Assembly (NCBI GenBank): GCA_964016885.1
Contig: OZ024741.1
Coordinates: 225,928,001-225,992,000 of the forward strand
DNA: 64,000 nucleotides
Reading direction: 5' to 3'
Origin: Eledone cirrhosa
Lineage: Eukaryota
In this document: in pieces, positions 3,209 to 59,314 of the stretch
Layout of the letters: each line of letters opens with the position of its first letter
Position numbering within the stretch: the stretch's first letter is position 1
The notes under the pieces: model-generated
Seen by the model: the letters and a program-made list of their open reading frames with translations, nothing else
What the model was told of the DNA's origin: nothing
Database searches by the model: none
Translations under genes and position numbers: made by a program

Positions 3209-3590
3209 TGCGCGGGGACATATAAATAATCGGACTGGATGCTCGATCGTGCGGTTAAACCACCGGGATTGAAGGATCTCCTAGCCTTTGTCAGGGCATT
3301 CTTCTCGGAGAAGGCAACCCAGGAAATTGGGATAACGCCGACATAAAATCTGCGGCTCAGTAGTTACCAATGATGTTGATCTTTTCTTCTTTCCGGGTTA
3401 CAGCTACTGTCGCTCAGAGAGTGGGATTGGCTCAGTGCACAGTCTTTCCTCATTTAAAAAAAATCTTCACGCACAGGCGTCGCACGATAGCATTAATTGA
3501 TAATTATTAATAATGGTATATCGTACAATGGCCATACTCAATAACGAGGGAGCAGCCATCATGTATGCATGTATGTACGTACGTATGTAT
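3209..3590 (+). mobile_element. Non-autonomous RTE-tailed element (copies at ~19012-19300 and 19566-19920)
   Basis: Colinear with 19566-19915; shares the caatggccatactc.ataacgagg..gcagccatc(atgt)n tail with the RTE at 3597-4560. Confidence 0.75.
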
Positions 3591-3596
3591 GTATAT

Positions 3597-4560
3597 ATTT
3601 CCATCAGATGTGTCTCAGACGGATCCATGGCGTTCACTGGAGGGACCACATCAGTGATGTCGAGATTTTGGAAAGCTCTATGTGTGACAGTATAGAAGCT
3701 CTTGTGCTTAAGCAACGACTCCGTTGGAGTGGTCACCTTGCCAGGATGAAGGATTCTAGAATACCAAAACAACTCTTATATGGAGAGTTGGTTAAAGGAA
3801 AACGACCGCCACATAAACCAAAAAAGAGGTATAAGGATTCCTTGAAAGCCCCTTTGAAAGACGCTAACATCTCTGCTGATACATGGGAAAATGTTGCTGC
3901 TGATCGTAATAAATGGAGAAAGACTGTATATGAAGGTAAAGTTGCCTTTGAGGCATCTCGAATCGCATACGAGAGAGTAAAGCGGGATGTGAGGAAGGGC
4001 ATTGCTGTTGCACTTCCAGACGGCGAGGGTCCACCTATGGTGCTGACATGCAGCGTATGTGCGAGACTCTGCCTAAGCAAAGTTGGACTCGAAAGTCATC
4101 TTCGCAGTCATAAAGTAAGACCAGTGGTTGACTACCAGACTGCTGTTGGAGATGCTACTCATCATGCTTGCCAAGCATGTGGTAGAGAATGTAAATCAGC
4201 AGGAGGGCTCAAGCGACATGCAAAAGTACATGAACTCCAACCACAGCCGAGTATTCCCAGTGAATGTTTTGGTTGCCAACTCTGTGCAAGACATTTTAGA
4301 TCTTTGGCTGGGCTAAAAAGCCACATTCGATCGCAGCGCTGTTAATTGCTATCGTGTGTGTATAGATATGTTTATGTGTGTGCGTGTGGGTGTATATATA
4401 TATATGTATATTATTATTGTTGTTGTTGTCGTTATTATTATTGTTATTATTGTTATTAATATATAAATATATATATATATATATTTTTTTTTTACTCGTG
4501 CAATGGCCATACTCGATAACGAGGGGGCAGCCATCATGTATATATGAATGCATATATGTA
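3597..4560 (+). mobile_element. 5'-truncated RTE-clade LINE; ORF remnant to 4345 ends in three C2H2-type zinc fingers
   Basis: HQMCLRRI..W.D.IS..EIL, QRLRWSGHLARM..RIPKQLLYGEL..GKR...KKRYKDSLK RTE motifs; CxxC-x12-HxxxH twice plus one variant; the N-terminal MYV repeats are microsatellite. Confidence 0.9.
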
Positions 4561-55819: not shown

Positions 55820-55825
<6 letters not shown>

Positions 55826-56474
55826 GGAATAGAATGAAACGAAATTTCATTTATCACTCTTAGTACGGCACTTACTTAAATGTAAGTATGTATGTATACG
55901 TACATACATATATGTATACAGACGCACAGTAGCATGTATATATATACATACAGGCACACATATATATATGCACGTATCAGTTTACCGAACATTTATTATA
56001 ATGCTCGGTTTGTTCGTTTGTAAACAAACAAACAGCCTGAATTACGCCGTACAGTGTTTAGGCAACCACGTCACCTTTTTGTTCAACACTGACACAGGAA
56101 CGATGTACTAGTTTCAAGCTTATTAGCTATCGTCAGCACCGTATACCTTTCTGCCAGATGGTTGAACGTCCGAAAGTATATACTTTCCTTATGAAAATTA
56201 ACGGCTGAGCAGCCTAATTTGCATATCGAGTGAGTTCAGTCGGCCAGGCGCACCGAAAACGATAAATGGAATAGAATGAAACGAAATTTCATTTCTCACT
56301 CTTACACGGCACTTACTTAAATGTAAGTATGTATGTATACGTACATAAATATATGTATACAGACGCACAGTAGTATGTATATATATACATACAGGCACAC
56401 ATATATATATATGCACGTATCAGTTTACCGAACATTTATTATAATGCTCGGTTTGTTCGTTTGTAAACAAACAA

Positions 56475-56475
<1 letters not shown>
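55820..56475 (-). mobile_element. Retrozyme-like non-coding 1.5-mer (period ~442 bp)
   Basis: ~213-bp direct repeats at 55820-56032 and 56262-56475, hammerhead between them, TA flanks. Confidence 0.75.
56100..56142 (-). ncRNA. Intact minimal type I hammerhead ribozyme
   Basis: acggtg-CTGACGA-t.agct.aata.agct.t-GAAA-c.ta.g-TA-catcgt; palindromic actagt, GUA triplet. Confidence 0.82.
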
Positions 56476-56534
<59 letters not shown>

Positions 56535-57289
56535 TATATATATTGCATATATATATTACCTTCTCTTGTTGTCTTGTTCCACAACACAAGGAACATCTAC
56601 CGAACCATCAAACGATAGAGGATATCTTTCTTCAAAGATAACAGCCAAAAAAATAACACAACAAAAATAAAAATAATACAATCAAACCATAAACAAAAAA
56701 GGGGTTTAACAATGATGCTTTTTTTGTTGTAAACTTATATTTATTGCTACATGGTTGTTGTTGTTATTATTGTTCCATTTATCTATTTATTTGTTTGTTT
56801 ATATATTAAATAATCAATTTATTTATTTCACTGCTGTTTCGTTAAACCTTCTTTTGATACAGTTTTAATTATAACATAGCGGTAAGTAGTGAGGGTGTAG
56901 GACGGTGGTGTGAAAGAATTAAATGTAGTGTGATGAGAAGTCTTGAAGAAATGAAGGAAAGTGTGATGAGGGATAAACTGTGATAAGGGGGAGTAGTAAT
57001 GGAACATAAAAGAAGAACATTAGGGAAAAGAAAGAGGAAAATAGGATGTATGTAAAAGGGAGTATGTAGGTGAGGAGTAGTGAGTGAAGGAGAGAAATAG
57101 AGAGGAAGAGAGAAGTAAGACATGAAAGAGAAATAAGAATTATGATTGAAACGATACCACGTGATTGTAGATTTTAACATGTCTTTATATGTTTCCACCT
57201 GTACGTTCACACAAAACGTACGCAGACATACACACGCGAACGTATGTATGTATGTATATATACATATATACATATACACACACACATAC

Positions 57290-59102
57290 ATTGATCGTCC
57301 GGTGGTGTCGCTCCACGATTCCATTTCCGCTTGGCCTGTACGCTGCTCTGAAGAAACGGTCCACCGTCCATCCATCGAGCATCTCCCTCAGCGCCTCCGA
57401 GCGGAACGCTGTGCTGTTGTACATCAGCAGTTCGTCCACAGGGCCCCGCTCCAAGAACATCTCTCTCAACGTCCGCATGATTTCCTCGGCCGTTCCAGTC
57501 TTCATCTCCCTCCATATCGCCATCCGTTCCGGTCCACAGTCGACCAACGAGAGGTACGTTCCCTGTCGGTAGTGTGTTACATCGTTTCCAGTCGCGATCC
57601 ACAGGGAGCCTTCCCGTTTCGTGGACACTCGGGGCGGGATCAATGGACTGACGTCGGACGCAGCCTCTAACCACTCTTTGAACACTGTGTCTGTTAACGT
57701 CCGAGTTGATTCTCCTGGCTAGGCTAGGAACAGAGTCCTATCCACTCCCATGTGGTGCATGTCATGCAACCCTTTCAGATCCGACTCGGTCAGCCGACAC
57801 ACGGCAGCTATCTCCTCTTCTACCTCTTCCGGCGCTTCCATCCAGGCTTTCTTCACCCTGGTTAAAACATCCGCCCTATTTTTCTCTGAGGGCACGAAAA
57901 CTACGCTTAGCCTCAGGTCGAACTCGGTGGCCAGCTGTCCTAAAGTTTTCAGGCAGCGCTTTATCAGCATCTCCCCCGCCCCTCTCGTTCGCACTCTCTT
58001 TTCACTGGTGAGCACTGATATCACCCATCCGAGTACAGTAGCCGAGTCGGTGTATATCTCGATGGTGCGCAGTCCCCACATCAGGGCGAGGTTCACCCCT
58101 CTCAACACCGCGTCCAGTTCGGCCACATTGATGTGGTTGCAGTCGTCTTTCTTCCTAAGCCAGGCTGCATCCTCGACCGCAACACCTCCTATCTCCAACG
58201 TGACACCCAGCGCTATGCTTCTGGCATCGCACCATGCGGTCCCGCTCTGCGATTTGGGAACATACCAGCGTCTCCGCACTGGGTCGTCGGCCTTCACCCT
58301 CTCCACGATCTCCTGCATCATGGCCACCGTCCTCTCTCCCGATCTGTCACTCCAAGTCACCCCTCCCGCTCGTCTTTTGACATAGCTGCATGCCGTTGGG
58401 AGCCACCCAGCAATCGAGTAGTGACCCACCAACTTTCCACCTGATATCCAGCCAACATGGCCAATCGCCGTATTTCCGCTGCGAAAATGTCAACGCGTTC
58501 ACCGTCCCATCTAATTCTTGCCAGCTTAGCAAAAGCGTCTAACGGTCCCTCCGCGAACGCTTCCATCATGCGCCTCTCAATCTTTTGCGCATCCCTTTGG
58601 CTGTGTTCATCCATCTCTAGGAAGAGCGCCAACGCGTTCCCCTCGAGGTGCAGTGCCATGAGGCCAGCCACATCTATCTTCTGTAAGCTTGCGACCAGCC
58701 GGACTTTTCGCAGCCGAGCGACAACATCGCCTTCACCGGTAAATGCCCTAATCGCTTCGCTCATTCGCTCGTCGCCATATCGTAATTTTGTTTTGCGGTA
58801 AGTAATAAAAAACAACAGACTCCTCTCTGTTTTTGTTTTCGAGAAAGATCTTTTTTTATCAATCAGATCTCAGTTTCCAGTGCCGAAATAGCTTGTGGTT
58901 AGAAAAAGCTACCTCACTTACCGCTTTCGCAGGCGCCGCTAAATCCAATGGCTAGTTTCCCCTCTCCCACGTGCGTACAATCCAACTCGTTAACCGGGAG
59001 CTGCAAAACTGACGTCCACCACGTTCGCTGATCACCCTAGAGAGAGACCCACCTGCTGGCCCTTCCGGTCGAGCACCCTTCCGGTCAAGCACTCTTCCGG
59101 TC
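57290..59102 (-). mobile_element. Gypsy-like LTR retrotransposon, internally deleted and 3'-truncated
   Basis: PBS-like TGGCGACGAG at 58777-58768; gag from 58764; RNase H WCDA..HINVAEL..YTDS; H..HHMGVDRT zinc finger; integrase DVTHY..VDCGP..PSGNGIVERHHRTI. Confidence 0.85.
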
Positions 59103-59169
59103 GAGTGGAATTATAACTAGGTTCAGTATAAGTTTGGTATATTTACCAGGGGCTGGTATGTAGCTATTG

Positions 59170-59247
<78 letters not shown>

Positions 59248-59314
59248 CAATAGCTACATACCAGCCCCTGGTAAATATACCAAACTTATACTGAACCTAG
59301 TTATAATTCCACTC
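59103..59314. repeat. Perfect palindrome centred on (TA)n
   Basis: ~71-bp arms, exact reverse complements. Confidence 0.95.

What the first reader, a model, noticed from the sequence alone, without database searches (positions are those of the whole stretch)
55820..56475. Retrozyme-like 1.5-mer with an intact hammerhead
Seen: non-coding, period ~442 bp, near-identical ~213-bp direct repeats, a complete minimal hammerhead with palindromic stem III, and TA tracts on both sides. Established: non-LTR retrozymes occur as tandem or partial-tandem copies of small circular RNAs. Inference: rolling reverse transcription of a ~440-nt circular RNA; a candidate cephalopod retrozyme family.
Basis: partly seen in the sequence, partly recalled or inferred. 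Interest (0 to 1): 0.75.

Follow-up and report, generated by a model that had tools for sequence, protein, structure and literature searches.

The report
Penelope-driven hammerhead retrozyme family
This is one dispersed copy of a very abundant non-coding repeat that carries a hammerhead-ribozyme motif and the insertion ends typical of Penelope-like retrotransposons, so it is likely copied around the genome by a Penelope-type enzyme, possibly from a small circular RNA; it is a new family of a known kind of element (animal retrozymes).

Summary
Confirmed, on the minus strand: a 656-bp insert (442-bp unit plus 214 bp of a second unit, repeats 96.7% alike) between TA tracts, with one minimal type I hammerhead outside the repeats. 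The genome holds 24,157 exact matches to this hammerhead core. Copies are not freely permuted: 88 of 89 insertions have an end at one of two sites 57 nt apart, 5' ends vary, 57 of 89 carry an inverted arm, and 46 of 49 two-armed insertions with both ends at these sites pair one short with one long end. That is the Penelope-like (PLE) 'tail' signature; a young coding PLE family here shows the same (7 of 7) and the same hammerhead type but no sequence homology. No copy examined runs into a PLE ORF, so it is not merely a pLTR. Copying crosses the cleavage site without stops or scars, and units within an insertion share rare variants, which fits rolling reverse transcription of a circle, but no RNA data exist and uncleaved linear multimers are not excluded. 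Verdict: new non-LTR retrozyme (non-autonomous PLE) family.

The parts
55820..56475 (-). Whole insertion, 1.48 units, 5'-truncated at unit position 230, no inverted arm
   Evidence: L007 is this locus
55820..56261 (-). 442-bp unit U (U1 = 56261, U442 = 55820)
   Evidence: tandem junction U442-U1 in many copies
56262..56475 (-). Partial upstream unit (U230-442), forming a pseudo-LTR-like direct repeat
56100..56142 (-). Minimal type I hammerhead motif: stem I 56142-56137 with 56105-56100; core CUGACGA 56136-56130; stem II 56129-56116 (U.U base); GAAA 56115-56112; palindromic ACUAGU 56112-56107; predicted cleavage between 56106 and 56105
55820..55876 (-). 57-nt 'tail' between the short (55877, U385) and long (55820, U442) fixed 3' ends; likely the two internal reverse-transcription start sites
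   Evidence: interpretation from PMC11167929
55743..55822 (.). (TA)40 target tract at the 3' end
56476..56556 (.). TA-rich target tract at the 5' end

Best explanation
The 442-bp unit is a non-coding, hammerhead-bearing repeat with Penelope-like insertion ends (a non-LTR retrozyme, i.e. likely a non-autonomous Penelope-like element) that is likely inserted by target-primed reverse transcription by a PLE RT/GIY-YIG protein, probably on a circular monomer RNA. Shown: two fixed 3' ends 57 nt apart, TA-tract targets, variable 5' ends, tandem and head-to-head arms, one short plus one long end per two-armed insertion, no stop or scar at the cleavage site, hammerhead pairing kept across subfamilies. 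Inferred: (1) copies with two or more hammerheads are transcribed and cut to monomers, probably as dimeric ribozymes through the palindromic stem III; (2) monomers are ligated to circles by a host ligase (shown for other retrozymes, not here); (3) a PLE protein, probably a dimer, nicks both strands of a TA tract and starts one cDNA at U442 and the other at U385; (4) each cDNA runs a variable distance round the template and the two are joined 5' to 5', or one arm is lost; the window copy is a one-armed 1.48-round product started at the long site. Odds: non-autonomous PLE-mobilised retrozyme about 0.9; circular template about 0.6; the L128-type coding family as the driver about 0.35.
For: Ends: 88 of 89 insertions have an outer end at U376-393 or U432-442; 57 of 89 have an inverted arm; 46 of 49 with both outer ends at these sites are short+long, 3 short+short, 0 long+long (p = 3.5e-11 against 0.5). 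Same pattern in a 310-bp sister family (11 of 11 readable two-armed insertions among 16 loci) and in a young coding RT+GIY-YIG family (7 of 7 readable facing pairs among 30 loci, tail about 50 nt, TA target, hammerhead with U.U stem II base and palindromic stem III). PMC11167929: an anole PLE cleaves and extends both strands at AT-rich DNA and starts RT at two internal sites that define the tail. Two separate RNA-templated starts, not fold-back: in L003 neither arm (U56-442; U376-442 plus 1-385) is contained in the other. Circle: 118 segments cross the cleavage site; 5 of 146 arm 5' ends lie within 5 nt of it (3.6 expected, p = 0.30); 1 indel event in 1,326 columns there against 229 in 58,726 elsewhere; rare variants shared between overlapping segments of one insertion are 10% (same arm) and 7% (opposite arms) against 0.5% between insertions; in 7 of 7 multimers of related subfamilies units are closer to each other than to the nearest of 13 other loci; sister-family arms reach 18 or more near-identical units. 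Ribozyme: stem I pair 3 occurs as G.U 97, A-U 58, U.G 52 of 215; variation falls on position 7 and loop II; core intact in 112 of 122 dispersed copies.
Against: No RNA evidence was obtained for expression, cleavage or circles. In PMC11167929 hammerhead cleavage was not needed for insertion in vitro, unprocessed RNA was the main substrate, the two start sites showed no strand preference, and no reads began at the cleavage site; in bioRxiv 10.64898/2026.07.22.740005 only 1 of 9 Xenopus retrozyme dimers cleaved in vitro. Within-insertion divergence was at or below the nearest other insertion in only 6 of 38 insertions of this family; most variants are private and post-date insertion, and gene conversion could also produce shared variants. 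A 21-kb array (G000:C1:70.056-70.077 Mb) has C3 of the core changed to A in 40 of 48 units and in its inverted arm but C in 8, which one circular template does not simply explain. The covarying stem I pair reflects about three lineage events, not 215. No coding PLE with sequence homology to the unit was found.
Confidence: 0.65

Rival explanations
1. Non-autonomous PLE copied from uncleaved linear read-through transcripts of tandem arrays; the hammerhead is a passenger or acts late, and no circle is needed.
For: It also predicts fixed ends and no scar at the cleavage site. PMC11167929 found unprocessed RNA the main substrate. The C3A/C mixture in the 21-kb array, inverted arm included, fits a heterogeneous, ribozyme-dead linear template.
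Against: Linear copying alone cannot lengthen arrays or spread a new variant to all units of both arms; shared rare variants, insertion-wide homogeneity and 18+ near-identical units in the sister family need a monomer bottleneck or later conversion. Hammerhead pairing is kept across subfamilies about 15% apart.
Confidence: 0.25
2. Multimers are made by template jumping between linear hammerhead-cut monomers rather than on a ligated circle.
For: It gives multimers and a monomer bottleneck, as seen.
Against: No excess of arm 5' ends or of indels at the cleavage site: 5 of 146 and 0 of 27 ends, 1 and 0 indel events (18 of the 146 ends placed at U1 are alignment artefacts).
Confidence: 0.06
3. The repeat is only the pLTR / 3' end of a coding PLE, left by 5' truncation.
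For: It has every PLE end signature, and Xenopus retrozymes are homologous to pLTRs (bioRxiv 10.64898/2026.07.22.740005).
Against: In the family loci searched with PLE proteins (L001-L094 and L235-L274) the few hits were separate fragments, none continuous with the unit's 5' side; 58 of 146 arms exceed one unit and continue into another unit; a profile of 37 units found no homology in PLE 3' regions beyond independent insertions and microsatellite noise. Only 50 of 150 listed GIY-YIG loci (10,597 candidates) were read, so a rare homologous parent is not excluded.
Confidence: 0.04

Closest known systems
Metazoan non-LTR retrozymes (Cervera and de la Pena 2020, PMC7229834; Li et al. 2026, bioRxiv 10.64898/2026.07.22.740005)
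   Same: Type I hammerhead in short low-GC non-coding tandem units, monomers to long arrays, thousands of copies, duplications longer than 4 bp, PLEs in the same genome; U.U pair at the base of helix II as described for axolotl HHR_Amex2.
   Different: Unit 420-538 bp, above the 170-400 nt of the 2020 paper but inside the 51-972 bp of the 2026 preprint; fixed paired ends and head-to-head arms are not mentioned in the passages I read; circles not shown here; no pLTR-homologous partner found.
EN+ Penelope-like elements, C-terminal GIY-YIG type (Craig et al. 2021, PMC8557442; Frangieh et al. 2024, PMC11167929)
   Same: Partial tandems forming pLTRs, inverted 5'-truncated arm, tail at one end only, microsatellite/AT-rich targets, hammerhead.
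   Different: No ORF; tail 57 nt against the 30-40 bp described; the whole element is the repeat unit.
Non-autonomous Chlamys PLEs such as MRC1 (PMC8557442)
   Same: Non-coding, pLTR-forming, multicopy head-to-tail insertions.
   Different: Those generally resemble autonomous partners at the 3' end and most Chlamys lack canonical hammerheads; here a hammerhead is present and no homologous partner was found.
Plant LTR retrozymes (as summarised in PMC7229834 and the 2026 preprint)
   Same: Non-coding, hammerhead-bearing, direct repeats at both ends of this copy.
   Different: Type III hammerheads inside the LTRs, PBS/PPT and 4-bp duplications; here type I, outside the repeats, variable 5' ends.

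Membership tests
Non-LTR retrozyme | Type I hammerhead motif | tested here: met
   not detected by Rfam at gathering threshold
Non-LTR retrozyme | Short non-coding tandem unit, GC under 50% | tested here: met
   442 bp, GC 38%, longest ORF 47 aa; family units 420-538 bp
Non-LTR retrozyme | Two or more consecutive hammerhead-bearing units ('active' by the 2026 preprint's rule) | tested here: met
   Met by the family (37 hammerhead-to-hammerhead units in the sample); NOT met by the window copy, which has one hammerhead
Non-LTR retrozyme | Target duplications longer than 4 bp when present | tested here: inconclusive
   Interrupted TA targets show matching 11-30-nt flanks in a few copies (L008, L019, L027, L029, L091); most flanks are pure TA and uninformative, including the window copy
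Non-LTR retrozyme | Expressed as linear and circular monomer RNA | not testable with these tools
   no RNA run listed
Non-LTR retrozyme | Self-cleavage in vitro | not testable with these tools
   only structure and conservation available
Penelope-like element (non-autonomous) | [quoted passage not shown] | tested here: met
   46 of 49
Penelope-like element (non-autonomous) | 5' truncation, partial tandem, inverted 5' arm | tested here: met
   57 of 89 with inverted arm; scattered 5' ends
Penelope-like element (non-autonomous) | Microsatellite / AT-rich target | tested here: met
   TA flanks in most copies
Penelope-like element (non-autonomous) | Sequence homology to an autonomous partner's pLTR | tested here: inconclusive
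   none among the PLE loci read; only 50 GIY-YIG loci and two families' 3' ends were sampled
Autonomous PLE / its solo pLTR | RT + GIY-YIG ORF in or directly upstream of the repeat | tested here: not met
Plant-type LTR retrozyme | Type III hammerhead in both terminal repeats, 4-bp duplication | tested here: not met
   one type I hammerhead outside the repeats; variable 5' ends

The most novel reading that the evidence does not exclude
This genome records, in tens of thousands of young copies of two families, a PLE enzyme dimer priming both strands of a TA tract at two fixed sites of one ribozyme-made circular RNA and rolling out two multimeric cDNA arms joined head to head. That would be direct genomic evidence tying animal retrozyme circles to PLE two-site priming, with a young coding PLE of no sequence homology as a ready candidate enzyme.
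Probability: 0.4. Interest if true: 0.72.

Novelty: new member of a known kind. Interest (0 to 1): 0.5.

Why it matters
That PLEs mobilise animal retrozymes, and that the circle is the template, are published proposals (PMC7229834; bioRxiv 10.64898/2026.07.22.740005) resting on co-occurrence and pLTR homology. Here the retrozyme itself carries the mechanistic fingerprint of PLE priming (paired short and long ends), the genome has at least 24,157 plus about 15,000 matching hammerhead cores, and a young coding PLE with the same fingerprint is at hand, so both proposals can be tested in vitro with an existing assay design (PMC11167929). The kind of element is not new.

Tried and rejected
Rfam gathering scan: 0 hits. 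Expression: no RNA holder listed; contigs of four runs of unrecorded kind were laid on 56030-56300: they show the family's sequence variants, including the stem I changes at 56139 and 56103, and low-depth contigs in two other coded organisms, which I do not count as evidence of range or expression. Search for an autonomous parent: a Pfam accession recalled for a PLE domain was not in the library; GIY-YIG search, BLAST, tblastn and nhmmer found only independent insertions of the unit beside PLEs (L119, L135, L136, L147, L215); a pattern for other families sharing the ACUAGU stem III gave 13 matches, mostly mutated family copies by their look (loci not read further). Fold-back on nascent cDNA as the source of inverted arms: rejected by L003. 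True LTR pair: rejected, 5' ends vary. The LTR-retrotransposon relic at 57.2-58.9 kb (RNase H, weak integrase) is separate. Monomer folding does not form stem III; the palindrome pairs between two molecules at -6.8 kcal/mol, a prediction only. Earlier findings were not available. Literature searches found no paper on cephalopod retrozymes or on tail-paired ends in retrozymes; the library lacks most subscription papers, and supplements of PMC7229834, PMC8557442 and the 2026 preprint (not read; preprint supplements closed) may list related families.

Full report
Observation. The insert spans 55820-56475 between TA tracts. Its two repeats start 442 bp apart and are 96.7% alike over 215 columns. 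On the minus strand the non-repeated middle holds one minimal type I hammerhead: CUGACGA at 56136, a 4-bp stem II on a U.U pair, GAAA, a palindromic ACUAGU stem III, cleavage predicted after 56106, 6-bp stem I. Rfam misses it; my descriptor finds 4 strict motifs in the window and none in 30 shuffles. The unit is non-coding, 38% GC and folds far better than shuffles (z = -7.0). With one cleavage site the copy could not release a monomer by itself.

Family. In the 3.0-Gb own genome a 24-mer of the unit has 2,173 exact matches and the 31-nt hammerhead pattern 24,157, control 0; subfamilies are about 15% apart with units of 420-538 bp. I mapped 89 insertions: the 30 best hits and 59 taken by position on C1 (dropped: two duplicate loci and three loci of one long array; five listed places were covered by other loci). 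88 of 89 have an outer end at U376-393 or U432-442, mostly into (TA)n; 57 of 89 have an inverted arm; where both outer ends are at these sites, 46 of 49 pair short with long, 3 are short+short, none long+long; 8 further two-armed cases have one end elsewhere (p = 3.5e-11). 5' ends are scattered, and 58 of 146 arms exceed one unit. Interrupted TA targets show 11-30-nt duplications in a few copies.

What the ends mean. Craig et al. (PMC8557442, passages) describe PLE insertions as partial tandems with an inverted 5' copy and a 30-40-bp tail often at one end only. Frangieh et al. (PMC11167929, parts 1-2 of 4) showed that an anole PLE nicks and extends both strands at AT-rich DNA and starts reverse transcription at two internal sites whose spacing is the tail. 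U386-442 (55876-55820) is therefore likely the tail. In L003 neither arm is contained in the other, so both arms were likely primed on RNA. The genome has several coding RT + C-terminal GIY-YIG families, most with a CxxC-type linker that PMC8557442 associates with Neptune elements (clade not tested by a tree). One young family (L128 type; 40 scored copies 100% identical over 231 bp) has a hammerhead of the same build, TA targets, a tail of about 50 nt and short+long pairing in 7 of 7 readable facing pairs; it shares no sequence with the unit, so it is a candidate driver only.

Not just a pLTR. PLE proteins searched against the family loci (L001-L094, L235-L274) hit only separate fragments; long copies continue into a further unit. 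Only 50 of the 150 listed GIY-YIG loci were read, so a rare homologous parent remains possible.

Ribozyme. The core is intact in 112 of 122 dispersed copies, 67 of 76 in the positional set. Among 215 motifs within four mismatches (a selection that favours intact ones), stem I pair 3 is G.U 97, A-U 58, U.G 52, and common variation falls on position 7 and loop II; these are a few lineage events. Activity is untested; 8 of 9 Xenopus dimers did not cleave (2026 preprint, parts 1-3 of 5).

Circle or line. For: no pile-up of 5' ends (5 of 146, 3.6 expected) or indels (1 in 1,326 columns) at the cleavage site across 118 crossing segments; rare variants shared within insertions 10% and 7% against 0.5% between; 7 of 7 multimers internally closer than to the nearest of 13 other loci. 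A 310-bp sister family (15,072 pattern matches, most listed rows of this family) shows the same pairing (11 of 11 readable), arms of up to 18 or more units, within-insertion mismatch 0.05-0.15% against 1.1% between, and 0 of 27 ends at the cleavage site. Against: no RNA data; within-insertion divergence at or below the nearest other insertion in only 6 of 38; conversion can mimic sharing; PMC11167929 found cleavage dispensable; a 21-kb array has C3A in 40 of 48 units and in its inverted arm but C in 8, core intact in 2. I put the circle at about 0.6.

Comparison. It meets the testable features of non-LTR retrozymes (PMC7229834: abstract, passages, sections 14 and 17), which are known from mussels and proposed to be PLE-mobilised; the 2026 preprint argues they are non-autonomous PLEs. 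A giant-squid genome paper notes 235 hammerhead matches without analysis (PMC6962438, passages). Six searches found no description of cephalopod retrozymes or of tail-paired ends in retrozymes; supplements were not read. The host's identity was not tested. Verdict: new member of a known kind, interest 0.5; the paired ends and the young coding PLE make the open question of retrozyme mobilisation testable.

Noticed in passing
L187-L202 (e.g. G000:C1:5388.4-5392.8 kb; C1:36482-36488 kb): Sister retrozyme family, 310-bp unit, same hammerhead geometry with a different palindrome in stem III, 26-nt tail, very young head-to-head multimers (6+8, 8+6, 1+18 or more units); no clear homology to the 442-bp unit outside the ribozyme.
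   Followed up: partly
L061-L063, G000:C1:70,055,930-70,076,677: 21-kb satellite-like array of the family: 17 unit types about 5.6% apart, expanded by higher-order duplications; catalytic C3 changed to A in 40 of 48 units and in the inverted arm.
   Followed up: partly
L128, L129, L132, L138, L140, L205-L234: Young coding PLE family with hammerhead about 385 nt after the stop codon, about 50-nt tail, TA target, tandem spacing 2,908 bp at one locus.
   Followed up: partly
L125, L126, L127: Long open PLE frames of 938, 844 and 1,096 codons (stop to stop); no hammerhead found nearby by my descriptor.
   Followed up: no
L143, L145-L156: PLE family whose 3' region has a hammerhead-like motif with UUGAUAA in place of CUGANGA and a palindromic stem III in the 12 copies read.
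   Followed up: partly
window 33313 (-), 2041 (-), 1852 (-): Three further strict hammerhead-like motifs from other repeats; the one at 1852 sits in a small inverted element between TA tracts.
   Followed up: no
window 33532 (-), 44084 (-), 47088 (+), 50245 (-): Degenerate hammerhead-like cores of at least two more repeat families; the last three are copies of one family, and the 33532 type also occurs in L105/L137.
   Followed up: no
window 57185-58869 (-): Broken LTR-retrotransposon relic: RNase H-like domain, DUF7047, weak integrase match.
   Followed up: no
window 59103-59314: Perfect 212-bp palindrome centred on a TA tract.
   Followed up: no
window 3545-4345 (+): Open frame of 266 codons with several weak C2H2 zinc-finger matches.
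   Followed up: no
unit U229-245: 15 of 146 arm 5' ends, the window copy's included, fall at the strong hairpin U230-253; may be a stall or joining site, or an alignment effect.
   Followed up: no
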